NCBI RefSeq assembly: GCF_056712565.1
Contig: NZ_CM160072.1
Length of the DNA: 64,000 bases
Reading direction: 5' to 3' (one strand)
The notes beneath the pieces are model-generated. The model saw only the letters and a list, made by a program, of their open reading frames with translations. It searched no databases and was not told the DNA's origin. Position numbers and translations under genes: made by a program. This document shows positions 766-53,540 of the stretch, piece by piece; the stretch's first letter is position 1; every line of letters starts with the position of its first letter.

Positions 766-930
766 GTCTCTCGCCTGGGGTGGAAACGGTTGGCCGCAAT
801 CGCGACACATCATCAGTATTTTGCCGCAGTATAACATGAAGGCGTCTTTGTTGTTATGCAACGGTTGGAGCAGCGTTCACCTGACGCTATACTGCTTCTC
901 TTTCTTATTGCTCAAACTGTCGACATTACT

Positions 931-1722
931 ATGCCCGTTTTTGCTCTGCTCGCGCTTGTCGCCTACTCCGTCAGTCTTGCGCTGATTGTTCCCGGTCTGC
1001 TGCAAAAAAACGGCGGCTGGCGGCGCATGGCTATTATTTCTGCGGTCATCGCGCTGGTCTGCCACGCAATCGCTCTGGAAGCCCGCATCCTGCCCGACGG
1101 TGATAGCGGACAAAACCTCAGCCTGCTGAACGTTGGTTCATTGGTCAGTTTGATGATCTGTACGGTAATGACCATTGTGGCTTCTCGCAATCGTGGCTGG
1201 TTGTTGCTACCCATTGTCTATGCCTTTGCGCTTATCAACCTGGCGCTGGCGACCTTCATGCCCAATGAATACATCACCCATCTGGAAGCAACGCCGGGGA
1301 TGCTGGTGCACATTGGCTTATCGCTTTTTTCCTATGCCACGCTAATTATCGCTGCCCTGTACGCGCTGCAACTGGCGTGGATTGATTACCAACTGAAGAA
1401 CAAGAAGCTGGCGTTTAACCAGGAAATGCCTCCATTGATGAGTATCGAGCGTAAAATGTTCCATATCACGCAGATTGGCGTGGTGCTGCTAACGCTCACT
1501 CTTTGCACTGGCCTGTTCTACATGCACAACTTATTTAGCATGGAAAATATCGACAAGGCCGTGCTCTCTATCGTGGCGTGGTTTGTCTATATTGTGCTGC
1601 TGTGGGGACATTATCATGAAGGATGGCGTGGACGCCGCGTCGTCTGGTTTAACGTTGCGGGTGCAGTCATTCTGACACTGGCCTACTTCGGCAGCCGAAT
1701 TGTCCAGCAGTTAATCAGCTAA
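931..1722 (+). CDS. ypjD: Inner membrane protein YpjD (cytochrome c assembly family)
   Basis: ORF 856..1722; start taken at internal MPVFALLALVAYSV to give the 263-aa product I recall for YpjD; multi-TM hydrophobic sequence. Confidence 0.85.
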   Translation: MPVFALLALVAYSVSLALIVPGLLQKNGGWRRMAIISAVIALVCHAIALEARILPDGDSGQNLSLLNVGSLVSLMICTVMTIVASRNRGWLLLPIVYAFALINLALATFMPNEYITHLEATPGMLVHIGLSLFSYATLIIAALYALQLAWIDYQLKNKKLAFNQEMPPLMSIERKMFHITQIGVVLLTLTLCTGLFYMHNLFSMENIDKAVLSIVAWFVYIVLLWGHYHEGWRGRRVVWFNVAGAVILTLAYFGSRIVQQLIS

Positions 1723-1766
1723 CCCCAGAAAAGGAGTTTCCCCTGGAACACATTTCTACTACTACG

Positions 1767-3029
1767 TTGATCATTATTCTGATCATCATGGTGGTCATTT
1801 CAGCCTATTTTTCCGGTTCAGAAACTGGAATGATGACACTCAACCGCTATCGCCTGAGACACATGGCGAAGCAAGGTAATCGCTCGGCAAAACGCGTCGA
1901 AAAATTACTGCGCAAGCCAGACCGCCTGATAAGCCTGGTGTTAATCGGCAATAATCTGGTCAATATCCTTGCTTCCGCACTCGGCACTATTGTCGGGATG
2001 CGCTTGTATGGCGATGCTGGCGTGGCAATTGCGACTGGCGTGCTGACCTTCGTAGTGCTGGTTTTTGCTGAAGTATTGCCGAAAACCATTGCCGCGCTGT
2101 ACCCGGAAAAAGTCGCTTATCCGAGTAGTTTTCTACTGGCTCCGCTGCAAATTTTGATGATGCCGCTGGTCTGGTTGCTGAATGCTATTACCCGCATGTT
2201 AATGCGCATGATGGGCATCAAAACCGATATCGTGGTTAGCGGCTCTTTAAGCAAAGAAGAGTTGCGTACCATCGTGCACGAATCACGCTCACAAATTTCC
2301 CGTCGCAATCAGGATATGCTGCTGTCGGTGCTCGATCTGGAAAAGATGACCGTCGATGACATCATGGTGCCGCGCAGTGAAATTATCGGTATTGATATCA
2401 ACGATGACTGGAAATCGATTCTGCGCCAACTCTCCCACTCACCTCACGGGCGCATCGTGCTCTACCGTGATTCGCTGGACGACGCCATCAGTATGCTGCG
2501 TGTGCGTGAAGCCTGGCGACTCATGTCGGAGAAAAAAGAGTTCACCAAAGAAACCATGCTACGCGCCGCGGACGAGATCTATTTTGTCCCGGAGGGTACG
2601 CCGCTCAGCACACAGTTGGTGAAGTTTCAGCGCAACAAAAAGAAAGTCGGCCTGGTCGTCAACGAGTATGGAGACATTCAGGGACTGGTGACGGTCGAAG
2701 ATATTCTCGAAGAGATTGTCGGCGATTTCACCACGTCGATGTCGCCAACACTTGCCGAAGAGGTCACGCCGCAAAACGACGGGTCGGTGATTATCGATGG
2801 CACCGCCAACGTGCGAGAAATTAACAAAGCCTTTAACTGGCATCTACCGGAAGATGATGCTCGTACTGTTAACGGCGTCATTCTGGAAGCGCTGGAGGAG
2901 ATCCCGGTAGCAGGCACCCGCGTGCGTATAGGCGAGTACGATATCGATATTCTCGACGTACAGGACAATATGATTAAGCAGGTAAAAGTTTTTCCTGTAA
3001 AACCGCTGCGCGAGAGTGTGGCGGAGTAA
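1767..3029 (+). CDS. yfjD: CNNM/CorB-family transporter YfjD (DUF21 + CBS + CorC_HlyC)
   Basis: 420-aa ORF with N-terminal TM region and C-terminal CBS/CorC-like part; conserved position between ypjD and grpE. True start may lie upstream. Confidence 0.85.
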   Translation: MIIILIIMVVISAYFSGSETGMMTLNRYRLRHMAKQGNRSAKRVEKLLRKPDRLISLVLIGNNLVNILASALGTIVGMRLYGDAGVAIATGVLTFVVLVFAEVLPKTIAALYPEKVAYPSSFLLAPLQILMMPLVWLLNAITRMLMRMMGIKTDIVVSGSLSKEELRTIVHESRSQISRRNQDMLLSVLDLEKMTVDDIMVPRSEIIGIDINDDWKSILRQLSHSPHGRIVLYRDSLDDAISMLRVREAWRLMSEKKEFTKETMLRAADEIYFVPEGTPLSTQLVKFQRNKKKVGLVVNEYGDIQGLVTVEDILEEIVGDFTTSMSPTLAEEVTPQNDGSVIIDGTANVREINKAFNWHLPEDDARTVNGVILEALEEIPVAGTRVRIGEYDIDILDVQDNMIKQVKVFPVKPLRESVAE

Positions 3030-3033
3030 CGAA

Positions 3034-3061
3034 AACGGCCCGGCATTCGCATGCTGGGCCG
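3034..3061. terminator. Hairpin between convergent yfjD and grpE
   Basis: acggccc...gggccgt inverted repeat followed by T-rich run. Confidence 0.3.
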
Positions 3062-3083
3062 TGATTTATTACGAAAGCAGAAA

Positions 3084-3710
<627 letters not shown>

Positions 3711-3799
3711 CTAACTTCGCTTATTATGGGGATCAGTTTCAGGGTTTCAAGGGAAGCACTCACATTGTCATCAATCTTCGCAACAAGGACCTCGGAAAA

Positions 3800-4678
3800 A
3801 TGAATAATCATTTCAAGTGTATTGGCATTGTGGGACACCCACGGCACCCCACTGCACTGACAACACATGAAATGCTCTACCGCTGGCTGTGCACAAAAGG
3901 TTACGAGGTCATCGTTGAGCAACAAATCGCTCACGAACTGCAACTGAAGAATGTGAAAACTGGCACGCTCGCGGAGATTGGGCAACAGGCTGATCTCGCG
4001 GTTGTCGTTGGCGGCGACGGTAATATGCTGGGCGCGGCGCGCACGCTCGCGCGCTATGATATTAAAGTTATTGGAATCAACCGTGGCAACCTGGGTTTCC
4101 TGACTGACCTTGATCCCGATAACGCCCAGCAACAATTAGCCGATGTGCTGGAAGGCCACTACATCAGCGAGAAACGTTTTTTGCTGGAAGCGCAAGTCTG
4201 TCAGCAAGATTGCCAGAAACGCATCAGCACGGCGATTAACGAAGTGGTACTTCACCCTGGCAAAGTGGCGCATATGATTGAGTTCGAAGTGTATATCGAC
4301 GAGATCTTTGCGTTTTCGCAGCGTTCCGATGGACTGATTATTTCGACGCCAACAGGCTCCACCGCATATTCCCTCTCTGCGGGCGGTCCTATTCTGACAC
4401 CCTCTCTGGATGCGATTACCCTGGTGCCCATGTTCCCGCATACGTTGTCAGCACGACCACTGGTCATAAACAGCAGCAGCACGATCCGTCTACGTTTTTC
4501 GCATCGCCGTAACGACCTGGAAATCAGTTGCGACAGCCAGATAGCACTGCCGATTCAGGAAGGTGAAGATGTCCTGATTCGTCGCTGTGATTACCATCTG
4601 AATCTGATTCATCCGAAAGATTACAGTTATTTCAATACATTAAGCACCAAGCTCGGCTGGTCAAAAAAATTATTCTAA
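3800..4678 (+). CDS. nadK: NAD kinase
   Basis: 292 aa, [17 protein letters not shown]...[11 protein letters not shown] motif. Confidence 0.95.
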
Positions 4679-4763
4679 TTTTACGCCAGCCTCTTTACTG
4701 TATATAAAACCAGTTTATACTGTACACAATAACAGTAATGGTTTTTCATACAGGAAAACAACT

Positions 4764-6425
4764 ATGTTGGCACAACTGACCATCAGCAACTTTGCTATCG
4801 TTCGTGAGCTTGAGATTGATTTTCATAGCGGCATGACCGTAATAACTGGCGAGACCGGCGCGGGTAAATCTATTGCAATAGATGCCCTCGGCCTTTGTCT
4901 CGGTGGTCGCGCTGAAGCCGACATGGTGCGTACCGGCGCTGCTCGTGCCGACCTGTGCGCCCGTTTTTCTCTGAAAGATACGCCAGCGGCCCTGCGTTGG
5001 CTGGAAGAAAACCAGCTTGAAGACGGGCATGAATGTTTGCTTCGTCGCGTAATCAGCAGCGATGGTCGCTCCCGTGGTTTCATCAACGGTACAGCTGTTC
5101 CTCTGTCACAACTGCGCGAACTGGGTCAGTTGCTGATTCAGATCCATGGTCAGCACGCTCATCAGTTACTCACCAAACCCGAGCACCAAAAATTCCTGCT
5201 TGATGGCTATGCCAATGAAACCTCTCAGCTCCAGGAAATGACCGCACGTTATCAGTTGTGGCATCAAAGCTGCCGTGACCTCGCGCATCATCAGCAGTTA
5301 AGTCAGGAACGCGCCGCCCGTGCGGAGCTGCTGCAATACCAATTAAAAGAACTTAACGAATTTAATCCGCAGCCTGGAGAGTTTGAGCAAATCGACGAAG
5401 AGTACAAACGTCTGGCGAACAGCGGTCAATTGCTGACCACCAGCCAGAATGCATTGGCATTAATGGCTGACGGTGAAGACGCAAATCTGCAAAGTCAACT
5501 TTACACGGCTAAACAACTGGTGAGCGAATTGATTGGCATGGACAGCAAACTGTCCGGCGTACTTGATATGCTGGAAGAGGCTACCATCCAGATTGCTGAA
5601 GCCAGTGATGAACTACGCCACTACTGCGATCGTCTGGATCTCGATCCCAACCGACTGTTTGAACTTGAACAGCGCATCTCAAAACAGATTTCGCTGGCAC
5701 GTAAACATCACGTCAGCCCTGAGGCATTGCCACAGTATTACCAGTCGCTACTGGAAGAACAGCAGCAACTGGACGATCAGGCCGACTCACAAGAAACGCT
5801 CGCGCTGGCGGTAACGAAACATCATCAGCAGGCACTGGAAACGGCGCGCGCGTTACACCAGCAACGCCAGCATTATGCAAATGAGTTGGCACAGCTGATC
5901 ACCGATAGTATGCATGCACTCTCTATGCCACATGGGCAGTTTACGATCGATGTTAAATTTGACGAGCATCACCTGGGCGCTGACGGCGCTGATCGTATTG
6001 AGTTTCGGGTAACCACCAACCCAGGTCAGCCAATGCAGCCTATTGCCAAAGTCGCATCCGGTGGTGAGTTGTCCCGCATCGCATTGGCAATCCAGGTCAT
6101 TACCGCGCGTAAAATGGAAACCCCGGCACTGATTTTTGATGAAGTGGATGTAGGGATTAGCGGCCCAACAGCGGCAGTTGTCGGCAAACTGCTACGTCAA
6201 CTTGGCGAATCAACTCAGGTGATGTGTGTTACCCACCTGCCACAAGTCGCGGGATGTGGTCATCAACACTATTTTGTCAGCAAAGAAACCGATGGTGCGA
6301 TGACAGAAACGCATATGCAATCCCTGGATAAAAAAGCGCGGTTACAAGAGTTGGCGCGCCTGCTTGGTGGCAGTGAAGTCACACGTAACACACTGGCGAA
6401 TGCGAAAGAACTGCTTGCGGCGTAA
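4764..6425 (+). CDS. recN: DNA repair protein RecN
   Basis: 553 aa, [37 protein letters not shown] Walker A, coiled-coil middle, SMC-like C-terminus. Confidence 0.95.
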
Positions 6426-6573
6426 ACTTTTTTCCTGCTTCACGGTCAGAGTAAACAGCAAAACGCCGTAAGACCGGAAAGCAAAAGGTTTTAAAGTGAT
6501 GAAAGGTCTATTATCATCGGCATATTACAGATGAGCCACGTACTGCTCGGGCCCGAAAAGGAATCAAATCACT

Positions 6574-6915
6574 ATGCGCTGTAAAACGCTGACTGCTGCA
6601 GCAGCAGTACTATTGATGTTGACCGCAGGCTGTTCCACTCTGGAGCGAGTGGTTTACCGTCCTGACATCAACCAGGGGAACTATCTGACCGCTAACGACG
6701 TATCCAAAATACGTGTTGGCATGACGCAACAACAAGTTGCGTACGCATTGGGTACACCGCTGATGTCCGATCCATTTGGTACAAATACCTGGTTCTATGT
6801 CTTCCGCCAGCAACCTGGTCATGAAGGTGTAACGCAGCAAACGCTGACGCTGACCTTTAACAGTAGCGGTGTGTTGACCAACATTGATAACAAACCTGCG
6901 CTGAGTGGTAACTAA
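6574..6915 (+). CDS. bamE: Outer membrane protein assembly factor BamE (SmpA)
   Basis: 113 aa with lipoprotein signal ([11 protein letters not shown]). Confidence 0.9.
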
Positions 6916-6940
6916 TAATAAAGTTGCTCTCAAAGACGTT

Positions 6941-6970
6941 AAAAAAGGTGCTCAATGAGCACCTTTTTTC
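6941..6970. terminator. Bidirectional rho-independent terminator between bamE and ratB
   Basis: aaaaaaggtgctcaatgagcaccttttttc: perfect hairpin flanked by A-run and T-run. Confidence 0.6.
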
Positions 6971-6976
6971 TGTCTG

Positions 6977-7264
6977 TTATTTATTCGCTGATTTTTCTGC
7001 TCGTTGCCTGCGAAGCTCTTTCGGATCGGCAATGAGAGGACGATAAATCTCCACCCGATCGCCATCATGCACAATATCGCTGAGTTTTGCCGGACGGCTG
7101 TAAATGCCGACTTTGTTTTTAGTTAAATCGATATCGGTACGCAATTCCAGCAAACCACTGGCGCGAATAGCTTCTTCAACCGTCGCGCCCTCCTGCAACG
7201 TCACGCGCTGCAGGTACTGCTTCTCAGGTAGCGCATAAGCCACCTCAACGGCAATTTTACCTGG
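6977..7264 (-). CDS. ratB: RatB (YfjF, UPF0125)
   Basis: Translation (V)[26 protein letters not shown]...; probable GTG start, the ORF track extends further upstream. Confidence 0.8.
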
Positions 7265-7733
7265 CACTGTAGACCTCTTTTGCACGAACAGTAAAAGCCT
7301 GCACCATATTAGCTGCCAGCTCTTTAAACACACGACCAAAGGCGAGTTCAATCAACTTATTGGTAAACTCAAAGTCGAGATGAAACTCAATACGGCACGC
7401 GTCCTGGCTCAACGGCGTAAACTTCCAACCGCCGATCAATTTCTTAAACGGTCCATCAACCAGACTCATGAGAATACTTTGATTACTGGTCAACTGGTTG
7501 CGGGTTGTAAACGTTTTGCTGATCCCAGCCTTAGACACATCTACCGCAGCAGTCATCTGCCCAGGAGTGGACTCCAGAATCCGACTTCCGGTACAACCCG
7601 GCAAAAACTGAGGATAAGACTGAACGTCATTCACTAACTGATACATTTGCTCCGCGCTGTAGGGCACCAGTGCGGTCCGGCTAATCTGAGGCATAACAAT
7701 TTCCATCAACAAAAATCCAACAAATAATATCAT
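7257..7733 (-). CDS. ratA: Ribosome association toxin RatA (YfjG, SRPBCC family)
   Basis: 158-aa [50 protein letters not shown]... Confidence 0.9.
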
Positions 7734-7864
7734 TTATCCTGCTGTAAAAAAAACGCTATCCCGGCGCTGGGTAACATCGGGTTCATGCTAAGATAGAGCC
7801 TTGTCCCCCGCAGGATTGATATGGGGTGTTTTCGATTTCAGATTACCGATGATTCACGACGCTT

Positions 7865-8347
7865 ATGACGAAGAAAAAAGCACATAAACCTGGTTCAGCG
7901 ACCATCGCGCTTAACAAGCGCGCCCGTCACGAATACTTTATCGAAGAAGAGTTCGAAGCGGGACTTGCCCTGCAAGGCTGGGAGGTTAAATCCCTGCGCG
8001 CAGGAAAAGCCAATATCAGCGACAGCTATGTCCTTCTGCGCGACGGAGAGGCATTTCTGTTTGGCGCTAACATCACGCCAATGGCTGTGGCCTCCACGCA
8101 TGTGGTGTGCGATCCTACCCGTACCCGCAAGTTACTTCTCAACCAGCGCGAACTGGACTCATTGTACGGTCGCGTCAATCGAGAAGGCTATACCGTAGTG
8201 GCGCTCTCCCTGTACTGGAAAAATGCCTGGTGCAAAGTGAAAATCGGCGTCGCCAAAGGTAAGAAACAGCACGATAAACGTTCAGATATCAAAGAACGCG
8301 AATGGCAGGTGGATAAAGCGCGTATCATGAAAAATGCCCACCGTTAA
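7865..8347 (+). CDS. smpB: SsrA-binding protein SmpB
   Basis: 160 aa, [51 protein letters not shown]... Confidence 0.95.
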
Positions 8348-8561
8348 ACCTATATAAGCGATACTAATCAAATCCTCACCGCGCCTCCCTATCCGGTGGC
8401 GCGAATGAACATCTTATCGACTGTCAAATCTGACACAGATGTAGCCATCCCATTGCTTAATCGAAAAAAAATCATACTATGCAGGCGCTAATTCCAGGAT
8501 GATAACGCCTTTTGGGCTAGTCATGCTGCTCATAAATCTGGTATACTTACCGTTACACATT

Positions 8562-8924
8562 GGGGCTGATTCTGGATTCGACGGGATTTGCGAAACCCAA
8601 GGTGCATGCCGAGGGGCGGTTGGCCTCGTAAAAAGCCGCAAAAAATAGTCGCAAACGACGAAAACTACGCTTTAGCAGCTTAATAACCTGCTTAGAGCCC
8701 TCTCTCCCTAGCCTCCGCTCTTAGGACGGGGATCAAGAGAGGTCAAACCCAAAAGAGATCGCGTGGAAGCCCTGCCTGGGGTTGAAGCGTTAAAACTTAA
8801 TCAGGCTAGTTTGTTAGTGGCGTGTCCGTCCGCAGCTGGCAAGCGAATGTAAAGACTGACTAAGCATGTAGTACCGAGGATGTAGGAATTTCGGACGCGG
8901 GTTCAACTCCCGCCAGCTCCACCA
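8562..8924 (+). ncRNA. ssrA: tmRNA (SsrA, 10Sa RNA)
   Basis: Begins GGGGCTGATTCTGGATTCGACGGGATTTGCGAAACCCAAGGTGCATGCC, contains tag-peptide coding region, ends ...GGTTCAACTCCCGCCAGCTCCACCA; 363 nt. Confidence 0.95.
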
Positions 8925-9085
8925 ATCATGATTGGACGGTGTAAGGACAACACCAACAAAAACAGGAAGTTAGAAGTCTCAGCAGGACACCGACCAGACG
9001 GTGAGGAGACATAAAAGGATACGCAAAGGAGCCGCGGCTCCGAAGTGAAATGAAAGCCCGCTGATGCGGGCTTTTTTGCTTCTTC
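8898..9085 (+). repeat. attL: ssrA 3' core (cgggttcaactcccgccagc) plus ~170 bp similar to the attR copy
   Basis: Near-identical to 53357..53540 by direct comparison, including the terminator hairpin aaagcccgctgatgcgggctttttt. Confidence 0.7.
9055..9077 (+). terminator. Rho-independent terminator downstream of ssrA
   Basis: agcccgctgatgcgggct hairpin followed by TTTTTT. Confidence 0.6.
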
Positions 9086-9452
9086 TCTTTAGCCTGATTC
9101 GACACTCTCAATGCGGCCATAAACAACAACCCACTTTTCTTATACCGTAGCCTGTCCCCCTCTTCCTGCTTTCTAACCATAACAGATGTGAGCGTTTGCT
9201 ATGAGCGATATATAGTCATTCGTACCCTCCGATACTAATCATCACAGAAATTAATATATTCATTCCTTACTGAAAAGCTATGAAGTAGATATATAGGATT
9301 GGGGCGCGTATGGCACTGGACAGTTATGCATCTCCGAATATTATTCCGGAGCTAAGACAACTAGACTGGCCCCCTGAATCTCCAGACAACCAATATCACT
9401 TATTTAAGTGATAGTCTTAATACTAGTTTTTAGACTAGTCATTGGAGAGCAG

Positions 9453-9818
9453 ATGATTGATGTCTTAGGACCGGAGAAACGCAGACGGCGTACCACACAG
9501 GAAAAGATCGCAATTGTTCAGCAGAGCTTTGAACCAGGGATGACGGTCTCCCTCGTTGCCCGGCAACATGGTGTAGCAGCCAGCCAGTTATTTCTCTGGC
9601 GTAAGCAATACCAGGAAGGAAGTCTTACTGCTGTCGCCGCCGGAGAACAGGTTGTTCCTGCCTCTGAACTTGCTGCCGCCATGAAGCAGATTAAAGAACT
9701 CCAGCGCCTGCTCGGCAAGAAAACGATGGAAAATGAACTCCTCAAAGAAGCCGTTGAATATGGACGGGCAAAAAAGTGGATAGCGCACGCGCCCTTATTG
9801 CCCGGGGATGGGGAGTAA
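9453..9818 (+). CDS. insC: IS2 transposase OrfA (InsC)
   Basis: [56 protein letters not shown]... Confidence 0.85.
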
Positions 9819-10681
9819 GCTTAGTCAGCCGTTGTCTCCGGGTGTCGCGTGCGCAGTTGCACGTCATTCTCAGACGAACCGATGACTGGATGGATGGCCG
9901 CCGCAGTCGTCACACTGATGATACGGATGTGCTTCTCCGTATACACCATGTTATCGGAGAGCTGCCCACGTATGGTTATCGTCGGGTATGGGCGCTGCTT
10001 CGCAGACAGGCAGAACTTGATGGTATGCCTGCGATCAATGCCAAACGTGTTTACCGGATCATGCGCCAGAATGCGCTGTTGCTTGAGCGAAAACCTGCTG
10101 TACCGCCATCGAAACGGGCACATACAGGCAGAGTGGCTGTGAAAGAAAGTAATCAGCGATGGTGCTCTGACGGGTTCGAGTTCCGCTGTGATAACGGAGA
10201 AAAACTGCGAGTCACGTTCGCGCTGGACTGCTGTGACCGTGAGGCACTGCACTGGGCGGTCACTACGGGCGGCTTCAACAGTGAAACAGTACAGGACGTC
10301 ATGCTGGGAGCGGTGGAACGCCGCTTCGGCAACGAGCTTCCGGCGTCTCCAGTAGAGTGGCTGACGGATAATGGTTCATGCTACCGGGCTAATGAAACAC
10401 GGCAGTTTGCCCGGATGTTGGGGCTTGAACCGAAGAGCACGGCGGTGCGGAGTCCGGAGAGTAACGGCATAGCAGAGAGCTTCGTGAAAACGATAAAGCG
10501 TGACTACATCAGTGTCATGCCCAAACCAGACGGGTTAACGGCAGCAAAGAACCTTGCAGAGGCGTTCGAGCATTATAACGAATGGCATCCGCATAGTGCA
10601 CTGGGTTATCGCTCGCCACGGGAATATCTACGGCAGCAAGCCAGTAATGGGTTAAGTGATAACAGGTGTCTGGAAATATAG
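9776..10681 (+). CDS. insD: IS2 transposase OrfB (InsD), DDE integrase-like catalytic domain
   Basis: 301 aa overlapping orfA in another frame (frameshift fusion arrangement typical of IS3 family). Confidence 0.9.
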
Positions 10682-10839
10682 GGGCAAATCCAACAACCGA
10701 ATGCCGCAGCAGGTAAGATCACGCTAGGGGGGCTGGACAGAATGGCTGTTACGCCCAGTGTGAAGAAAAGAAGGCTAAGTATGGTAGAATTTCCATACGC
10801 ACAGACCTTGTTATCCGACTATACAGCCTGGAAGGCACT

Positions 10840-11628
10840 ATGACAAATCTACAACTGGAAGAAAGATTTAGGGCGCTTGAGAAAGATTACGATGCGCTCA
10901 TTTCCACAAAATATACTGCGCAGAACGTTCTCACTCACACTATGGAAACCTATGTTGATTCTGGTAAATATAAAAACTGGATCGCCAGAGTGAAAAAGTT
11001 AATAGAGGACAGCTACGGAAAAGAGTCTGATTATTACAATGACTTCAATACTGTAAACAGCAGGTGGTCTTCTAATTACAATACACTGATCAAAAGTTAT
11101 AAACCGTTGTTTGATGCGGCGAGAGATGATCTTGCGCACTCTGCTGTCAGTACTAATACTCCTCAAGAAGGTTCGCCGCTGAGCCTCGTACTTAATATTC
11201 TTAACAGGTTTCCGACCTTTGTTCGCCAGTTAAAGAGGCGGTACAACGGCCGTGCGCCGCTTGAAGTTAATGATGAGTATGACGTACAGGATTTGATTTA
11301 TGCACTGCTGACGCTTCATTTTAATGATATTAGGGCGGAAGAGTATACCCCCAGCTTTGCGGGCGCGGCCTCAAGACAGGACTTTCTTTTGAAAAAAGAG
11401 AAAATTGTGATAGAGGTGAAGAAAACCCGTGAATCTCTGGGAGCGGGTAAAGTTGGTGGAGAGTTGCTTATTGATATGGCGCGCTACCGCGCTCACCAAG
11501 ACTGCGATACGTTGATCTTGTTTGTATATGACCCGGATTGCTACATAAATAATCCTTTGGGCGTGAAAACCGATCTGGAATCTAAAGACGCGGAAGGAAA
11601 AGTGAAGGTTGTTATTGCGCAGTTCTGA
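10840..11628 (+). CDS. Hypothetical protein, helical N-terminus and possible PD-(D/E)xK nuclease-like C-terminus; defence candidate
   Basis: 262-aa ORF; C-terminal D...(D/E)xK-like motifs (DVQDLIYALL ... KEKIVIEVKKTRE); no family recognised; lies in the accessory islet. Confidence 0.5.
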   Translation: MTNLQLEERFRALEKDYDALISTKYTAQNVLTHTMETYVDSGKYKNWIARVKKLIEDSYGKESDYYNDFNTVNSRWSSNYNTLIKSYKPLFDAARDDLAHSAVSTNTPQEGSPLSLVLNILNRFPTFVRQLKRRYNGRAPLEVNDEYDVQDLIYALLTLHFNDIRAEEYTPSFAGAASRQDFLLKKEKIVIEVKKTRESLGAGKVGGELLIDMARYRAHQDCDTLILFVYDPDCYINNPLGVKTDLESKDAEGKVKVVIAQF

Positions 11629-11663
11629 CACGCTTAAGTGTCACCTTACAGGATTAGGTTTGC

Positions 11664-11709
11664 GGCCGTGCCAGCAGGACGAGCATGAAAAAGGCCGCTG
11701 GCACGGCCG
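11664..11709. terminator. Long hairpin between convergent ORFs
   Basis: cggccgtgccagc ... gctggcacggccg, 13-bp perfect inverted repeat. Confidence 0.4.
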
Positions 11710-11715
11710 GATTTG

Positions 11716-12009
11716 TCATCTTTGCCAGGTCAAATCAAAATCTACGTGAAAATCCGCAGGCTTAAGCTCGCAACTGCCACCACGCCCAATTAACGACGTT
11801 ATGTTTACAACGTTTGAACCTGTTGAGATGGCAAGTTGAGTGTCATCTGTAAACGTGATGATTAGCATTTCAGTCTGATGAACCTGTACTCCAGTTTTCT
11901 GAAAACCAATCTGGACAGATTTCACCGTTTTCCCAACCATTTCACGGGCTTGATTGATAGAGTAATTAGCTTCAACTTGTAGGTCATTCCTGAACTTGGG
12001 TAGTGTCAT
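11716..12009 (-). CDS. Small hypothetical protein (97 aa), downstream partner of the GIY-YIG gene
   Basis: ORF co-oriented with and downstream of 12220..13026; no recognisable motif. Confidence 0.45.
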   Translation of the reverse strand: MTLPKFRNDLQVEANYSINQAREMVGKTVKSVQIGFQKTGVQVHQTEMLIITFTDDTQLAISTGSNVVNITSLIGRGGSCELKPADFHVDFDLTWQR

Positions 12010-12219
12010 TTTACATCCTCTTTAGTGAAGTTTTCGCTATTTAAATCAGCAGCATTCCTTTTAAATCACTGGCATGTCAGCAGTGGATAGTCTGAGTGTA
12101 ACGTCCAGTGAGGGGAATAAATATTGGTCAGACTTTGCACAAAAGAGCCAACTATCGCGGGCTCTCTCTCATCATGTGCGAAAATTGACCACAATATGAA
12201 ATCCAGTTCCATTCCGAAA

Positions 12220-13044
<825 letters not shown>

Positions 13045-13152
13045 TCAATTGACAACTTATAATCCCTACTAGTTAGCATTATGATTTCCAGAGTGAGGAA
13101 TATAAAAATCTCTGTTTCTGGCACATAACAGCCCTTAAGATCGTAGCTCGCC

Positions 13153-13200
13153 ATCATGGGGTGTCGGGGGGCGGAGGTTCAAATCCTCTCGTGCCGACCA
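13153..13200 (+). other. Truncated tRNA 3' fragment (T-arm, acceptor, CCA), tRNA-Pro-like
   Basis: catggggtgtcggggggcggaggttcaaatcctctcgtgccgacca resembles the 3' half of tRNA-Pro as recalled; no matching 5' half upstream; followed by hairpin + T-run at 13215-13240. Confidence 0.55.
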
Positions 13201-13441
13201 AAAATCCCTTAAGAACCAGCCTATTATGGCTGGTTTTTTTATGATTGTTTTTTATGCGGAGAAATACCGGGGAATAATTGGGGTAAAACACCTTTAGGCT
13301 ATTCACTTAGCCTACCACCATCAAAATCTTTCCGAATGTATCCATCTCTTTTTTCTTATGCAGCTAAAACGAAGTCTTGATACTGTTTATTTACACAGAT
13401 AAGAATAATACTGTCTACAAACGCAGTACAAAAGAAGTGTT

Positions 13442-13620
13442 ATGCGTATTGAGATCTCCATAGCCAAAGACAAAATGACCAAATGCCAAACGGCGCTGTG
13501 GACGCGTTAAAGGAAGAATTAACCCAACACATTGGCAAGCGTTATGACGATGTGGAGATGATCGTAAAAGCCACCAGCAACGATAGTTTTTCAGTTAGAC
13601 ATACTGCAGATAAAGATTGA
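13442..13620 (+). pseudogene. DinI-like protein, frameshifted and C-terminally truncated
   Basis: Frame 1 [14 protein letters not shown] then stop; shifted frame continues [37 protein letters not shown], matching the DinI-family pattern MRIE..IAK...LP.GA.DAL..EL. Confidence 0.5.
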
Positions 13621-14044
13621 GCTAAAACTTTCGTTCAGGAAACTCTGAATGATACCTGAGAGTCTACTGAAGAGTTGTTTGTTCACTAGTTAGCACGTAG
13701 GAAATCATTCAATACTCGCACTATCGGAAGTTCACCAGCCAGTCGTAGCACGTCCTTGCAAACGACGTGCCTACGGTTTCAATCACCTCTCACCATCAAT
13801 TCTATCAATAATAATTAAACAGCGCCTAGACAAAATAAATAACAACAAGTCAACAACCTCGACAGGATGCCGATGGGATGATGAAGAGATAAGAAAGAAT
13901 AACCAGTAAAGCCCTAAAACGTCAGCGTTCAGACGCGTTTTTTACTTAATCGGTAACAAATACGTTGTATCATAGCAAAATAAAATGATTGTTCTAAATC
14001 AGATTAACTCCTCACTTTTGTACAATGTCGCTTACAGGTATACC

Positions 14045-15934
14045 ATGAAATCCGAGACGCTAACTGTCCAACAACTTTTTCAAGACCGCCGACAATACTG
14101 TGTTCCATTCTATCAACGTGCCTATGTATGGACTCAGCAAGACCAGTGGTCAGCTCTACTGGAGGATATCCTAGAGAAAGTACAATCCCGGCTCTCGGGT
14201 ACAAAACCAACTCCCCATTTCCTTGGTGCGGTTGTACTGGAACCTCAATCAAAAAAAGGATTATTAGGTGTAGATTCCATACATATTATTGATGGTCAGC
14301 AACGATTGACCACTCTTCAATATGTTCTGGCATCCATCCGATTAGCATTACGTGCTACGGATCTTTCCAGCTTAGAGGCTCTCATTTCGCCTTGCCTGAA
14401 AAACTCAAACGAAGACACAATGCGAAATAAAGAAGTAGAACGCTTCAAACTGTGGCCAACTTTTCGGGATCAAACTCATTTTATTCAAAGTTTTAATGTT
14501 GAAAATATTGACGATCTCCGGGACGTATTCTCTGATAGTTTCACGCAGCATGGTACGTTGCGTAAGCATTTTAATCACCCGCCATCACTAGAAGCATTAT
14601 GTTTTTTTACTGAAGCCTTTATAAAATGGATTAAAATAGAAAACCACTCACCACAAGAAAATGCTGTAGCTCTAATTGAGGCTGTCTTAACAGATCTGAA
14701 ACTGGTAAGCATATTTCTCGAAGCTGAAGATGATGCCCAAATAATTTTTGAAACATTAAATGGGCGAGGGGCGGAACTTCATGCTACGGATCTTATTCGC
14801 AACTATATCTTTATGTGCGCTGAGCATGAAAATATTAATGCTATTGAATTATATGAAAATGAGTGGAAGAGCTTTGAAGATAAATACTGGTCGGAAAAAC
14901 AACGCCGTGGACGTATTAATAAACCACGCATGGAGTGGCTAGTACATGCGACATTGCAATCAGAAAGGCAACGTGAAATTGATCTGTCTCGCCTTTACAA
15001 TGAGTATCGTGATTATGTAAGTAAGGACTTGTCTTCACAACGAGCAGATCTGCAAGTAAAGCGCCTCAAACAATATGCATCACAATATAAAGAATTGGTT
15101 GATGGTTTTGGCACAACCCCCATCTCACACTTTGGATATCGCATCGCAGACTATGATGTGACGACACTTTATCCGCTTGCTTTGTTCATTTCGATAGCTA
15201 ACATCGCTGATGATGAGAAAGCAGCCATGTATAATGATCTTGTCTCCTACGTAGTACGAAGAGCCGTATGTGGCCTGACGCCAAAGAATTACAACAATGT
15301 ATTTATGAATGTATTGCGGCACTTGGCTAAAACGGAAATTTCCAGTGTTGAGTTACGTAATATCCTCAATAACTTAAATGGCGAAGCCTCACGTTGGCCT
15401 GGTGACTCAGAATTTCTCAACGCTTGCATCAATGCTCCACTTTATCCTGGCAGGCTCGACGCACCGAAAATGCGCTCAATGTTAACGGAACTTGAAAGAG
15501 AACTTTGTCGCCAAGTAAAGACAGAAAAGCCTGATGTTCCAAATCTTTCTAATCTCGATATCGATCATCTTATGCCTCAAAGTTGGTATTCCTGTTGGCC
15601 TCTCGAAAATGGTCGTATGGTGACAAATTCAGATGCTACGGTATTGAACCAAATTGTTCTGTCTGGAACCGATCTTACCCCTGAACAGCTACTGGTAAGG
15701 AAACGGCAACAAGCGATATCTACTTTGGGAAATCTAACTTTGCTTAACCTTAGCGTAAACCGTTCTGTTCAGAATGCTGTATTTCTGAAAAAACGTGATG
15801 CTCTCATCGTCCACACCAATCTACGACTGAACATTCCACTTATAGTTAAGGATAAATGGGATGAGGATGAAATCCTGGAGCGGGGTAAAAAGTTGGGGGA
15901 AATTGCATTGAAAGTATGGCCAAAACACGATTAA
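14045..15934 (+). CDS. Type IV restriction endonuclease, GmrSD-like (N-terminal DUF262/ParB-like, C-terminal DUF1524/HNH-like)
   Basis: N-terminal DGQQRLTTL motif; C-terminal DIDHLMPQSW...N motif; start taken at MKSETLTVQQLF; AT-rich gene. Confidence 0.75.
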   Translation: MKSETLTVQQLFQDRRQYCVPFYQRAYVWTQQDQWSALLEDILEKVQSRLSGTKPTPHFLGAVVLEPQSKKGLLGVDSIHIIDGQQRLTTLQYVLASIRLALRATDLSSLEALISPCLKNSNEDTMRNKEVERFKLWPTFRDQTHFIQSFNVENIDDLRDVFSDSFTQHGTLRKHFNHPPSLEALCFFTEAFIKWIKIENHSPQENAVALIEAVLTDLKLVSIFLEAEDDAQIIFETLNGRGAELHATDLIRNYIFMCAEHENINAIELYENEWKSFEDKYWSEKQRRGRINKPRMEWLVHATLQSERQREIDLSRLYNEYRDYVSKDLSSQRADLQVKRLKQYASQYKELVDGFGTTPISHFGYRIADYDVTTLYPLALFISIANIADDEKAAMYNDLVSYVVRRAVCGLTPKNYNNVFMNVLRHLAKTEISSVELRNILNNLNGEASRWPGDSEFLNACINAPLYPGRLDAPKMRSMLTELERELCRQVKTEKPDVPNLSNLDIDHLMPQSWYSCWPLENGRMVTNSDATVLNQIVLSGTDLTPEQLLVRKRQQAISTLGNLTLLNLSVNRSVQNAVFLKKRDALIVHTNLRLNIPLIVKDKWDEDEILERGKKLGEIALKVWPKHD

Positions 15935-16029
15935 TGCAATTAATAAAATGATTATAGTGGCCTTACATTAGTAAGGCCGCTACTCACTATTAAATACTTT
16001 AATTTGCATCAAGAACAGCAGTGTCAGCC

Positions 16030-16158
16030 CTAGGTCTCGGACTTTGTACCGCTTATCTTGTCTTCAAAAATCAGCTCGCATCCTGCACAGTTCAGCGCAT
16101 TACGTTGTAGATCTGTGTTCTGGTCATTTGTTGACACACGTACATAGCCAATAAGCAT
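16030..16158 (-). pseudogene. DNA invertase (Pin/Gin/Hin family) truncated to an N-terminal ~41-codon fragment
   Basis: Reverse-strand translation MLIGYVRVSTNDQNTDLQRNALNCAGCELIFEDKISGTKSET then stop; N-terminus of serine invertases including the catalytic-Ser region. Confidence 0.75.
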
Positions 16159-16184
16159 GGTAGATCTCCCTGACAAAAGCAGGA

Positions 16185-16679
16185 ATGATGCCATTTGCTC
16201 GTTATTTCTGCATTTTCATAAACGTTGGTTTGGGAGAAGGCTCTGCATTACCTGTTGGTGTGCCTGTTCCATGGCCTTCAGCCACACCGCCAACAGGCTG
16301 GCTGAAATGCAACGGTGCGGCTTTTTCTGCTGAAGAATACCCGGAACTGGCAAAGGCTTATCCGACAAATAAATTGCCTGATTTACGTGGTGAGTTTATT
16401 CGTGGCTGGGATGATGGGCGCGGCGTTGATTCAAGGCGTGCGGTGCTGTCAACACAAGAGCCAACTGTAGGTACTTTTTATGTGGAGCTAGCTATCATCT
16501 CGGGAACTTTGAGCGGCTCAGGTGCTAAATTTACCGATTCAGTAGGGATTGGATCAACCAGTAGTAACATTACCGTTAGCAACGGTAATGACCAGTCCGT
16601 GTCGGGTACAGTGGCCGTTAACCCCGTCGATACCCGTCCACGCAACATTGCATTTAACTATATCGTGAGAGCAGCATAA
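16185..16679 (+). CDS. Alternative tail-fibre C-terminal cassette (Sv'-like), in the unexpressed orientation
   Basis: Contains phage tail-collar-like motif VPVPWPSATPPTGWLKCNGAAFSAEEYPELAKAYP; shares the LGLGE crossover sequence with the expressed tail-fibre gene. Confidence 0.7.
   Translation: MMPFARYFCIFINVGLGEGSALPVGVPVPWPSATPPTGWLKCNGAAFSAEEYPELAKAYPTNKLPDLRGEFIRGWDDGRGVDSRRAVLSTQEPTVGTFYVELAIISGTLSGSGAKFTDSVGIGSTSSNITVSNGNDQSVSGTVAVNPVDTRPRNIAFNYIVRAA
16226..16240. repeat. Left inverted repeat / crossover site of the invertible tail-fibre segment
   Basis: ttggtttgggagaag is the exact reverse complement of 18141..18155. Confidence 0.65.
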
Positions 16680-17281
16680 TGGATAAAGCAATATTAAATA
16701 GTGGACTTGTTGCTACAAAGGCAGGGGATATTACCGTTTATAACTATGATGGTGAAACTCGGGAATATATTTCCACTTCAAGTGAATATCTTGCCGTTGG
16801 TGTTGGTATCCCGGCATATTCCTGTCTGGATGCACCAGGTATACATAAGGCGGGTTATGCTATCTGTCGTTCTGTGAATTTAAATTCATGGGAATATGTG
16901 CCAGACCATCGCGGTGAAATCGTCTATAACACCGAAACGGGAGAATCAAAACAAATCACAGCACCGGGTGATTACCCCGAAAATACAACCACTATTGCCC
17001 CATTAACGCCATACGATAAATGGGATGGTGAGAAATGGGTGACCGATACTGAGGCACAGCATAGCGCCGCAGTAGACGCGGCAGAAGCACAGCGTCAGTC
17101 ACTGATTGATGCTGCAATGGCTTCCATCGGTCTGATTCAGCTGAAATTACAGGCCGGACGGAAGCTGATGCAGGCAGAAACAACCCGGCTTAACGCTGTG
17201 CTGGATTACATTGACGCGGTGACGGCAACAAATACCAGCACAGCGCCGGATGTCATCTGGCCTGAACTGCCGGAGGCGTAG
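16679..17281 (+). CDS. Tail fibre assembly protein (alternative Tfa, partner of the Sv'-like cassette)
   Basis: 200 aa; C-terminal LDYIDAVTATNTSTAPDVIWPELPE typical of Tfa chaperones; convergent with and overlapping the other tfa. Confidence 0.75.
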   Translation: MDKAILNSGLVATKAGDITVYNYDGETREYISTSSEYLAVGVGIPAYSCLDAPGIHKAGYAICRSVNLNSWEYVPDHRGEIVYNTETGESKQITAPGDYPENTTTIAPLTPYDKWDGEKWVTDTEAQHSAAVDAAEAQRQSLIDAAMASIGLIQLKLQAGRKLMQAETTRLNAVLDYIDAVTATNTSTAPDVIWPELPEA

Positions 17282-17696
17282 GCCATTCAATATCTGGCGC
17301 ACAGGAAGTATCGACCAGTTCCAGTGCGTCCAGATAATCCAGCCACGAATTATATTGCGCCAGTTCCTCGCCTTTCAGACGACCAATAGCAGCTTTGCCA
17401 GGCCACTGATGGGTATTGATGTAGGTATTGACTTCTGAAACCAAAGATATTTTTTTCATTTCAGCCGTCAACACCTCATCCTCTTTTGAAGGGGGTGGGG
17501 AATTAATCCATACTGGCCGTCCTGAACTGTCAGCGCCAATTTCTTTCCCTTCTGGATGCAGACCAAGAAATTGCTCATATGTTTCTCTGGTAATTTCAAT
17601 AACATCATCAGGAAGCGTTCCCGCATCCTCATATTCTGGAAACAATTCTTGCAGATAAAAACTTTTACTTCCGGGTGAAAAGAATACTGAGTTCAT
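17253..17696 (-). CDS. Tail fibre assembly protein (Tfa)
   Basis: 147 aa, C-terminal LDYLDALELVDTSCAPDIEWPTPP motif. Confidence 0.75.
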   Translation of the reverse strand: MNSVFFSPGSKSFYLQELFPEYEDAGTLPDDVIEITRETYEQFLGLHPEGKEIGADSSGRPVWINSPPPSKEDEVLTAEMKKISLVSEVNTYINTHQWPGKAAIGRLKGEELAQYNSWLDYLDALELVDTSCAPDIEWPTPPAVQAR

Positions 17697-17698
17697 TA

Positions 17699-18442
17699 TT
17701 ACCGTCCAATGATTAACGCTGAGACGCTGGTATCTGAAGGAAAGGCTGCATTCAGTGGTTTGTCGACTTTGAACACAATCGTATTATTCCCCCTGACAGC
17801 GGCAAAAGAACAAACCGCCGTCGCGTATGAACCTGTAATATTACTGGATACACCACCATAAGCTGTTGTTGATACCAGAGGGATAACGCCCAGCACCTTA
17901 TTAGGAAATACAAAGGGCAATGTGGCTGTGGCAATATAAGACTTATTAGAACCTGTGATGGCATAAGCATTATCAGTCATTCCATTCATCGCCACTGGGC
18001 CGCTTATACTTACAGTAACCATCTGAATGATTAGCCCGTCAGGTTGACGAATCACAAAATTTCCATTGCCACCAGTAACCGTCCAGAAAGACATATCAGG
18101 GATTTGGTTTTCCCCGTTGCCCACATTCCGTTTTGCCGCTTCTCCCAAACCAAGGTTTTCGAGAGCCGTTTTCACCGTGCCGTCCGATTTGATATCGCTA
18201 AACGGATTCTTGCGGCTTAACAGCAGCGCACGAAGCGCGGTAAGCAGCTGGTCGTGCCGCGCCTTCTCCAGACTGGCACCGGATGCCTCCACCACGCTGC
18301 AGAGTTCTTCCTGCAACATGTCAAAGTAGTCATCATCCAGATCGGTGGCAGGCGTGCCTGTCTGGGGGTTACCACGGGTAAAACCGTTCTTACCCGCGCC
18401 GAACTTATCCTTCTGCGCGGTTTTCGTGTCTATACGATGCAT
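17699..18442 (-). CDS. Tail fibre protein (constant N-terminus + currently expressed variable C-terminus)
   Basis: 247 aa [29 protein letters not shown]...; crossover LGLGE inside the gene; e14 StfP-like. Confidence 0.75.
18141..18155. repeat. Right inverted repeat / crossover site of the invertible tail-fibre segment
   Basis: cttctcccaaaccaa, reverse complement of 16226..16240. Confidence 0.65.
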
Positions 18443-53200: not shown

Positions 53201-53356
53201 AGCGATGTCATTCTTATACGATGGATTTATAGATTATCTACTATTCATAGTTGGTTATGAAGACTGGGATATAACAGTAAAAGATACGTGTAAGATCCGC
53301 AAGATAGTTAATGTCGAAAAAATCATTAATTACATCAAGTTAGTGATATTTGGACT

Positions 53357-53540
53357 CGGGTTCAACTCCCGCCAGCCAATCATGATTGGACGGTGTAAGG
53401 ACTACACCAACAAAAACAGGAAGTTATAAGTCTCAGCAGGACACCGACCAGACGGTGAGGAGACAAAAAAGGATACGCAACGGAGTCGCGACTCCCTATG
53501 ACATTAAAGCCCGCTGATGCGGGCTTTTTTATTGGTCCTG
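53357..53540 (+). repeat. attR: second copy of the ssrA 3' core plus ~170 bp flanking sequence, with terminator
   Basis: cgggttcaactcccgccagc followed by sequence ~90% identical to 8918-9085 (5-bp tccac indel) and hairpin aaagcccgctgatgcgggctttttt. Confidence 0.7.

What the first reader, a model, noticed from the sequence alone, without database searches (positions are those of the whole stretch)
9357..10697. IS2 inserted with intact 5-bp target-site duplication inside the prophage accessory region
ACAAC directly flanks both IS2 ends, indicating a simple, probably recent transposition rather than a recombination-generated junction. It lies ~430 bp from the ssrA end, next to the defence-like genes, where it could affect their expression or promote further rearrangement.
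Basis: seen in the sequence. Interest (0 to 1): 0.3.

Follow-up and report, generated by a model that had tools for sequence, protein, structure and literature searches.

The report
IS2 insertion upstream of prophage nuclease
This is an ordinary, intact copy of the well-known E. coli jumping gene IS2 that recently hopped into a prophage next to the tmRNA gene; the only notable point is that the same short stretch in front of one prophage nuclease gene has been hit by insertion sequences several separate times in related strains.

Summary
A complete 1331-bp IS2 lies at 9362-10692, + orientation. It is flanked by a perfect ACAAC direct repeat at 9357-9361 and 10693-10697. Joining the flanks with one ACAAC gives a 1039-bp sequence found uninterrupted at 100% identity in all 40 listed complete E. 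coli genomes (UTI89, S88, APEC O1, IHE3034, ATCC 11775). This proves a simple transposition.

The window is otherwise 99.97-100% identical to UTI89. None of 5,426 complete genomes has IS2 at this site, but four metagenome contigs carry the left-junction ORF, and the one read matches exactly. The insertion is therefore real and recent.

IS2 sits 437 bp past ssrA, inside the cargo end of a ~44-kb ssrA prophage. It is 147 bp before a solitary DpnII/MboI-fold nuclease gene, which neighbours the known defence gene PD-T4-3.

A family-conserved extended -10 (TGGTAGAAT, 10782-10790) remains attached to the nuclease gene. No IS2-flank fusion promoter is formed, so any expression effect is probably small; this was not tested.

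New here: at least seven other independent IS insertions hit this nuclease gene or the 143 bp before it in other strains, while an adjacent control segment is never interrupted. Overall this is a known element and ordinary biology.

The parts
8562..8924 (+). ssrA (tmRNA) gene, the prophage integration site (attL side).
   Evidence: ARAGORN finds a tmRNA with tag ANDENYALAA. The Rfam tmRNA model scores 295.8 bits on the identical UTI89 locus.
9317..9344 (+). Sigma-70 promoter-like site (TGGACA-16-TATTAT, 10/12) that ends 17 bp before IS2. It is lineage-specific, and if active it is cut off from the nuclease gene by IS2.
   Evidence: Found by the consensus scan. It is not conserved in homologous loci. 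Its function is inferred only.
9357..9361 (.). Left copy of the 5-bp target-site duplication, ACAAC.
   Evidence: A single ACAAC is present in empty sites.
9362..10692 (+). Complete IS2, 1331 bp.
   Evidence: It is 100% identical over 1331 bp to IS2 copies in many E. coli genomes. It is 97.75% identical, with no gaps, to K-12 IS2A.
9362..9403 (+). IRL, the 42-bp imperfect terminal inverted repeat that starts with TA.
   Evidence: It aligns with the reverse complement of IRR with one gap. The 42/41-bp lengths match PMC3299598.
9453..9818 (+). orfA (InsC/TnpA, 121 aa), an HTH repressor.
   Evidence: Pfam HTH_Tnp_1 E 1.8e-19. NCBIfam 'IS2 repressor TnpA' scores 276 bits against a cut-off of 229. 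The protein is identical to K-12 InsC1.
9770..9776 (+). A6G slippery heptamer (AAAAAAG) for the programmed -1 frameshift that yields the OrfAB transposase.
   Evidence: The sequence is read directly. The mechanism is from PMC3299598. PGAP annotates the identical element in SCU-116 as a 'programmed frameshift' transposase.
9776..10681 (+). orfB (InsD/TnpB, 301 aa), the DDE catalytic part of the transposase.
   Evidence: Pfam HTH_21, rve and rve_3. NCBIfam 'IS2 transposase TnpB' scores 713 bits against a cut-off of 597. It has no internal stop and differs from K-12 InsD1 at 8 aa.
10652..10692 (+). IRR, the 41-bp terminal inverted repeat that ends in CA. It contains the outward -35-like TGGAAA at 10671-10676.
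   Evidence: The role of the IRR -35 in Pjunc and fusion promoters is from PMC3299598 and PMC9330008.
10693..10697 (.). Right copy of the 5-bp target-site duplication, ACAAC.
10782..10790 (+). Extended -10-like element TGGTAGAAT, the likely native promoter of the nuclease gene. It starts 89 bp right of IS2 and is left intact.
   Evidence: TG(G/A)TAGAAT is conserved in 8 of 9 homologous loci from chromosomes and plasmids, down to about 64% protein identity. Promoter function is inferred.
10840..11628 (+). 262-aa solitary nuclease gene (C-terminal REase_DpnII-MboI, PD-(D/E)XK fold). It is the gene downstream of IS2.
   Evidence: Pfam PF18742 E 9.5e-49. PADLOC pAgo-associated 'Aga_Helical-REase' E 1e-26. 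The only PDB sequence relative is EcbAgaN, E 1.9e-4.
12220..13026 (-). PD-T4-3 single-gene anti-phage defence protein (GIY-YIG). Listed as context.
   Evidence: PADLOC PDLC04031 E 8.6e-137. Pfam LEM-3_GIY-YIG.

Best explanation
A resident, fully functional-looking IS2 (IS3 family) transposed into the cargo end of the ssrA-integrated prophage of a UTI89-like (B2/ST95-type) E. coli. The known IS3-family route is copy-out/paste-in: a figure-of-eight, then a minicircle, then staggered attack on the target. Repair of the 5-bp stagger duplicated ACAAC. The insertion point lies in a lineage-specific 83-bp spacer within the upstream region of a solitary DpnII/MboI-fold nuclease gene, 147 bp before its ATG. 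The gene's conserved proximal promoter block (extended -10 TGGTAGAAT) is left attached, and more distal upstream DNA is moved 1.3 kb away. Shown: the identity of the element, its intactness, the TSD, the empty site, its recency, and recurrence of IS hits at this locus in other strains. Inferred: the transposition pathway (from the literature), and that the effect on the nuclease gene is small. At most, a non-conserved distal promoter-like site is lost, and weak read-through from the OrfA-repressed IS2 promoter may be added.
For: The element is 1331 bp with a perfect ACAAC TSD.

The reconstructed empty site is found uninterrupted at 100% identity in all 40 listed complete genomes, and 109 genomes hold it at >=80% coverage in one place. 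The window is collinear with UTI89 at 99.97-100%, with IS2+TSD as a clean insertion.

OrfA and OrfB score above the curated NCBIfam IS2 cut-offs, and the Pfam HTH/rve domains are present. The A6G site and the 42/41-bp IRs are present. Identity to K-12 IS2A is 97.75%.

Identical IS2 copies sit elsewhere in genomes that have the empty site here, for example MS8345 and SF-468.

No complete genome shares the site. Four ENA metagenome contigs carry the exact 33-aa left-junction ORF, and the one read matches the window over 3191 nt with 0 mismatches.

The conserved extended -10 block lies downstream of the insertion. The candidate -10 hexamers at the IRR junction are ACAACC, CAACCG and AACCGA, so there is no fusion promoter. 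The pathway and the 5-bp stagger are described in PMC3299598.
Against: Nothing argues against the structural reading.

The functional part is untested. The distal promoter-like site at 9317-9344 (10/12 match) could be the real promoter in this lineage. In that case IS2 would uncouple it, and the effect would not be small.

Seven further independent IS hits at the same gene in other strains hint that insertions here may not be neutral.
Confidence: 0.93

Rival explanations
1. The insertion is not neutral. It is one of a series of selected IS hits that silence or re-tune a costly prophage nuclease (self-damage or fitness cost). This allele persists because it changes expression of the gene at 10840-11628.
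For: There are eight independent IS insertions in about 1 kb. Four are IS2, at -143 (this window), -105, -92 and -38 from the ATG. They represent three IS2 sequence variants and both orientations, and each has its own perfect 5-bp TSD. One is an IS100-like element at about -79. Three lie in the coding sequence: ISEc52 and another IS3-family element at two different positions.

Among complete genomes, 10 of 116 have the nuclease segment interrupted or truncated, against 0 of 112 for the adjacent equal-length PD-T4-3 segment. Fisher p = 0.0016, not corrected for phylogeny.

Half of 367 plasmid-borne homologues are truncated remnants.
Against: This window's insertion leaves the family-conserved promoter block and the coding sequence intact, unlike the -38 and in-gene insertions.

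The detection methods were unequal. Upstream hits were found across a 15-billion-protein collection, while coding-sequence hits came from only 116 genomes.

Several interrupted genomes are clonal. No expression or fitness data exist.
Confidence: 0.3
2. The recurrence reflects target preference, not selection. The promoter-proximal DNA before the nuclease gene is a regional hot target for IS2, which is reported to prefer intrinsically curved DNA, and this insertion is a neutral by-product.
For: All four IS2 insertions fall within a 110-bp stretch just upstream of, or at, the conserved promoter. None is in the 789-bp coding sequence, where the hits are other IS types.

Two IS2 insertions used the same pentamer GGCTG, 13 bp apart.

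PMC3299598 reports that IS2 inserts near curved regions and cites non-random IS2 insertion.

The region has 44.8% G+C against 50% for the window.
Against: Curvature was not computed here. Non-IS2 elements also hit the locus, which a purely IS2-specific preference does not explain. The four TSDs share no consensus (ACAAC, GGCTG, GGCTG, CGCAC).
Confidence: 0.45
3. The junctions arose by homologous recombination between IS2 copies, by IS-mediated deletion, or by misassembly, rather than by simple insertion.
For: None was found. It is considered because IS copies often mark rearrangement or assembly breakpoints.
Against: There is a perfect TSD, and both flanks are contiguous in IS2-free genomes with exactly one ACAAC. 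An independent metagenome contig reproduces the left junction base for base. There is no second IS2 in the window.
Confidence: 0.01

Closest known systems
IS2 of E. coli K-12 (IS2A, insC1/insD1; IS3 family, IS2 group)
   Same: The length is the same (1331 bp). The 42/41-bp imperfect IRs are the same (TA... at IRL...CA at IRR). The orfA/orfB layout, the A6G -1 frameshift site and the 5-bp TSD all match. The OrfA protein is identical. Nucleotide identity is 97.75% with no indels.
   Different: There are 30 nucleotide substitutions and 8 OrfB amino-acid differences from IS2A. These include 3 changes at IS positions 42-44, next to or within the reported OrfA-binding region (PMC3299598). This variant is itself common: 100%-identical copies are found in many genomes.
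IS2 insertions that activate neighbouring genes by fusion promoters (ampC, Jaurin & Normark 1983; acrEF; neoR), as reviewed in PMC9330008
   Same: IRR faces the downstream gene and carries the outward -35-like hexamer TGGAAA.
   Different: No -10-like hexamer lies at the required 16-18-bp spacing in the flank; the candidates are ACAACC, CAACCG and AACCGA. The gene's own conserved promoter starts 89 bp further on. The fusion-promoter mechanism is therefore not expected here.
IS2 at the neighbouring site in E. coli SCU-116, MS20673 and Eco_23-2678
   Same: The IS2 sequence is 100% identical, in the same orientation, in the same prophage and before the same gene, with a perfect 5-bp TSD.
   Different: It is inserted 105 bp further right (TSD CGCAC = window 10798-10802). 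That is between the conserved -10 and the ATG, so the promoter is uncoupled there. In SCU-116 the gene also carries a second IS at its 3' end.

Membership tests
IS2 (IS3 family) | Element length of about 1.33 kb with imperfect terminal inverted repeats of 42 bp (IRL) and 41 bp (IRR). | tested here: met
   The element is 1331 bp. IRL and IRR align with one gap. The lengths match PMC3299598.
IS2 (IS3 family) | At least 95% nucleotide identity to the reference IS2. This is the ISfinder iso-form convention, recalled from my own knowledge. | tested here: met
   Identity to K-12 IS2A (NC_000913.3 381260-382590) is 97.75%, with 0 gaps.
IS2 (IS3 family) | Two overlapping ORFs (orfA with HTH; orfB with a DDE/rve catalytic core) in 0/-1 phases, with an A6G slippery site. 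| tested here: met
   The ORFs are at 9453-9818 and 9776-10681. AAAAAAG is at 9770. Pfam finds HTH_Tnp_1, HTH_21, rve and rve_3. NCBIfam IS2 TnpA and TnpB both score above their curated cut-offs.
IS2 (IS3 family) | A 5-bp direct target-site duplication. | tested here: met
   ACAAC lies on both sides. A single copy is present in the empty sites of all 40 listed genomes.
IS2 (IS3 family) | Transposition competence (minicircle formation, frameshifted OrfAB production). | not testable with these tools
   Only intactness of all sequence features can be shown. Identical copies at different sites in related genomes imply recent activity of this variant.
PD-T4-3 defence system (neighbouring gene 12220-13026, context only) | A single GIY-YIG protein matching the PADLOC PD-T4-3 model. 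| tested here: met
   PDLC04031 E 8.6e-137 over 254/256 profile positions. Anti-phage activity was not tested here.
Type II restriction enzyme DpnII/MboI (downstream gene 10840-11628) | REase_DpnII-MboI catalytic domain together with a cognate methyltransferase partner. | tested here: not met
   The domain is present (PF18742 E 9.5e-49). No adjacent methyltransferase is present in the window or in UTI89. The N-terminus is a helical domain like that of pAgo-associated nucleases. I therefore file it only as a solitary PD-(D/E)XK-fold nuclease of unknown role.

The most novel reading that the evidence does not exclude
The 143 bp in front of, and the body of, this solitary DpnII/MboI-fold prophage/plasmid nuclease gene may be a recurrent, possibly selected target of IS-mediated disruption across E. 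coli lineages. Eight independent hits were seen here, against 0 of 112 interruptions in the neighbouring PD-T4-3 segment. That would mark the nuclease as a costly (autoimmune?) defence-type cargo gene whose expression is repeatedly switched off or re-tuned by IS2 and other ISs.
Probability: 0.3. Interest if true: 0.35.

Novelty: already known. Interest (0 to 1): 0.15.

Why it matters
As an IS2 insertion it matters little. It is a strain-level polymorphism that can serve as a lineage marker: the same left junction recurs in metagenome assemblies.

The modest added value is the locus, not the element. The DpnII/MboI-fold nuclease module is widespread on enterobacterial prophages and conjugative plasmids and is often mis-annotated as 'malate dehydrogenase'. 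It is uncharacterised. It appears unusually prone to IS disruption, whereas the adjacent validated defence gene PD-T4-3 is not.

If that asymmetry reflects selection, it would be a small natural experiment on the cost of carrying a solitary nuclease.

Tried and rejected
1. A 65-aa ORF (window 9310... in the empty-site form) spans the insertion point and ends in an ATGA overlap with the nuclease ATG. I tested whether IS2 disrupts a real gene. It has only near-identical E. coli homologues. It has no Pfam or PADLOC hit. Its first ~42 codons lie in an 83-bp segment absent from the homologous Morganella module. I rejected it as a conserved gene. Its chimeric variants were useful, however, because they exposed other IS insertions.

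2. An Rfam search of the empty site and of four homologous loci found no RNA family in the upstream region. It found only tmRNA and sub-threshold noise.

3. An IRR-flank fusion promoter was rejected because no -10-like hexamer lies at the right spacing. The consensus scan finds no outward + strand promoter between 9345 and 11053.

4. A tblastn search with the nuclease protein against phage genomes gave no match.

5. Searching the literature for the REase_DpnII-MboI family gave nothing useful.

6. I tried to enumerate IS-truncated variants of the nuclease protein through the protein database. This failed because 90% clustering hides them.

7. Recombination and misassembly origins were rejected.

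Full report
**1. The observation**

Reading the sequence and checking it by script places IS2 at 9362-10692, exactly 1331 bp. The left end starts TAGACTGGCCCCC (IRL) and the right end finishes GGGGCAAATCCA (IRR). ACAAC occupies 9357-9361 and 10693-10697. The match does not extend to a sixth base on either side. ARAGORN places ssrA at 8562-8924, so IS2 begins 437 bp downstream of it.

**2. It is IS2, and it is intact**

- The element is 100% identical over its full length to IS2 copies in many E. coli genomes. IS2-like matches occur in 4,898 of 5,426 complete genomes.
- It is 97.75% identical to K-12 IS2A, with 30 substitutions and no indels. OrfA is identical and OrfB differs at 8 residues, with no internal stops.
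- orfA (9453-9818) has the HTH_Tnp_1 domain. It scores 276 bits on NCBIfam 'IS2 repressor TnpA' against a cut-off of 229.
- orfB (9776-10681) has HTH_21, rve and rve_3. It scores 713 bits on 'IS2 transposase TnpB' against a cut-off of 597.
- The A6G slippery heptamer lies at 9770.
- The terminal repeats align as 42 bp versus 41 bp with one gap. This matches the description of IS2 in PMC3299598.

**3. It is a simple insertion**

I joined the flanks with a single ACAAC (window 8926-9361 + 10698-11300) and searched all complete E. coli genomes. The 1039-bp reconstruction is present as one uninterrupted 100%-identical match in every one of the 40 genomes listed. These include UTI89, S88, APEC O1, IHE3034, NU14 and the type strain ATCC 11775. 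In all, 109 genomes have it at >=80% coverage in one place.

Aligning the whole window to UTI89 shows 99.97-100% identity throughout. Window 1-9361 maps to UTI89 2891120-2900480, and window 10693-16239 maps to 2900476-2906022. The two blocks overlap by exactly the 5-bp ACAAC. Nothing is deleted or rearranged at the junctions. Recombination-generated junctions and IS-mediated deletion are therefore excluded.

**4. It is recent, and it is real**

- Junction-spanning queries found no complete genome with IS2 at this position.
- The flanks are essentially identical to IS2-free relatives: 1 mismatch in 9361 bp on the left and 0 in 5547 bp on the right.
- Genomes with the empty site, such as MS8345 and SF-468, carry 100%-identical IS2 copies elsewhere. 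A resident donor copy is therefore plausible.
- The chimeric 33-aa ORF created by the left junction exists verbatim in the public protein collection on four ENA metagenome contigs. The one contig read is identical to window 6310-9500 over 3191 nt and stops 139 bp into IS2.
- The allele is thus not an assembly artefact of the window and circulates in sampled populations.

**5. Context**

- A 188-bp copy of the ssrA 3' end plus terminator (8890-9077) recurs at 53349-53530 at 90% identity.
- The UTI89 annotation shows a complete-looking myovirus-type prophage between ssrA and an integrase at the far end.
- IS2 therefore lies within the prophage, in the cargo region between attL and the tail-fibre genes.
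- The next gene (10840-11628) encodes a 262-aa protein with a C-terminal REase_DpnII-MboI PD-(D/E)XK domain (E 9.5e-49). It resembles pAgo-associated 'Aga helical-REase' nucleases, and its only PDB sequence relative is EcbAgaN.
- Two genes further on is PD-T4-3, a described single-gene defence system (E 8.6e-137). A DUF262 protein follows.
- 'Defence-like neighbours' is therefore accurate.

**6. Likely effect on the neighbouring gene (inference)**

I compared the upstream regions of nine homologous nuclease genes. They came from unrelated contexts: Pectobacterium, Morganella, Klebsiella and Salmonella chromosomes, plus IncF, IncX1, IncX4 and mobilisable plasmids.

A block of about 105 bp directly before the ATG is conserved. 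Within it, an extended -10 motif TG(G/A)TAGAAT is retained in 8 of 9 loci, down to about 64% protein identity. In the window this is TGGTAGAAT at 10782-10790, starting 89 bp to the right of IS2, so it stays attached to the gene.

IS2 lies in an 83-bp segment bounded by 8-bp direct repeats CTGGACAG (9316 and 10733). This segment is specific to this lineage and absent from the Morganella module.

A second promoter-like site (TGGACA-16-TATTAT, 9317-9344, 10/12) lies just left of IS2 and would be uncoupled by it. It is not conserved.

IS2 is known to supply an outward -35 from IRR for fusion promoters at ampC, acrEF and neoR (PMC9330008). Here the hexamers at 16-18-bp spacing from the IRR TGGAAA are ACAACC, CAACCG and AACCGA, so no fusion promoter forms. 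The scan found no terminator-like site on the + strand between IS2 and the gene. Weak read-through from the OrfA-repressed IS2 promoter is therefore possible.

My best estimate is a small effect on expression. This is not demonstrated.

**7. What the follow-up added: a recurrent IS target**

Searching with the spurious 65-aa ORF that spans the site returned chimeric proteins. Their contigs reveal further independent insertions:

| Strain or sample | Element | Position and TSD |
|---|---|---|
| HVH 126 | IS2, opposite orientation, 29 mismatches to the window copy | TSD GGCTG at window-equivalent 10744-10748 |
| UMEA 3834-1 | IS2, opposite orientation, 59 mismatches | TSD GGCTG at 10731-10735 |
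| One metagenome contig | IS100-like (IS21-family) element | About 10761 |
| SCU-116, MS20673, Eco_23-2678 | IS2 identical to the window's, same orientation | TSD CGCAC at 10798-10802, 38 bp before the ATG |

Inside the coding sequence:

- AH21I008 carries ISEc52.
- NCTC11151 carries another IS3-family element.
- The SCU-116 annotation shows that same IS3-family transposase gene overlapping the gene's 3' end, at a different position.

That makes eight independent events, including the window's.

Among complete genomes, 116 carry the nuclease segment at >=99% identity, but only 106 carry it uninterrupted. The adjacent equal-length segment (the 97-aa ORF plus PD-T4-3) is uninterrupted in all 112 genomes that carry it at >=99%. 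Fisher p = 0.0016, uncorrected for shared ancestry. On plasmids, half of 367 homologues are truncated remnants.

Two explanations remain open, and they are not exclusive. One is a regional IS2 target preference; IS2 is reported to favour intrinsically curved DNA (PMC3299598). The other is selection against an expensive nuclease. I could not separate them with these tools.

**8. Comparison with the known, and verdict**

Every defining feature of IS2 that can be tested in silico is met, so this is a member of IS2 and not a variant of interest. The mechanism is the textbook IS3-family copy-out/paste-in pathway, taken from the literature and not tested here.

The finding is correct but ordinary. 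Interest is low. The only mildly interesting lead is the repeated IS disruption of the uncharacterised solitary nuclease module.

Noticed in passing
window 16220-18158: A 1.9-kb segment carrying tail-fibre and tail-fibre-assembly genes is inverted relative to UTI89. It is bounded by inverted ~20-bp sites (AAAC(G/C)TTGGTTTGGGAGAAG) of the Gin/Cin/Pin crossover type. The adjacent invertase gene is only a remnant in UTI89 ('recombinase family protein, incomplete'), so inversion presumably depends on an invertase supplied in trans.
   Followed up: partly
window-equivalent 10731-11509; loci L001, L003-L007: At least seven further independent IS insertions hit the same nuclease gene or its upstream 143 bp in other E. 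coli strains or samples: IS2 x3, IS100-like, ISEc52, and another IS3-family element x2. The adjacent PD-T4-3 segment is uninterrupted in 112 of 112 complete genomes.
   Followed up: partly
window 9316-9323 and 10733-10740 (adjacent parts of one 83-bp unit in the IS2-free form): The UTI89 lineage has an 83-bp segment bounded by 8-bp direct repeats CTGGACAG. It is absent from the homologous Morganella module, and it is replaced by a different ~190-bp segment in Klebsiella aerogenes and Salmonella. This is a variable spacer of unknown nature between two conserved upstream blocks of the nuclease module, and it has no Rfam match.
   Followed up: partly
window 10840-11628 and homologues: The solitary REase_DpnII-MboI nuclease family is widespread in Enterobacterales chromosomes, prophages and 367 plasmids, mostly conjugative. 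It is frequently mis-named 'malate dehydrogenase' in public records. It often sits next to Abi-family or other defence-type genes, and it has no cognate methylase next to it.
   Followed up: partly
window 10727-10732: Some Logan short-read assemblies show length variants of a G6 run in the nuclease upstream region. These shift the spurious upstream ORF into the nuclease reading frame (P0008-P0010). They are most likely sequencing or assembly errors, and were not checked further.
   Followed up: no
window 8890-9077 and 53349-53530: There is a 188-bp duplication (90% identity) of the ssrA 3' end plus its terminator hairpin. It marks the two ends of the ~44-kb prophage. The phage-borne copy restores the ssrA 3' end and terminator at attL.
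   Followed up: partly
window 9403-9405 (IS2 positions 42-44): This IS2 variant reads TTA where K-12 IS2A reads AAA. The change lies in or next to the region reported to bind the OrfA repressor (residues 39-48 in PMC3299598). The effect on IS2 regulation is unknown, and the variant is common.
   Followed up: no
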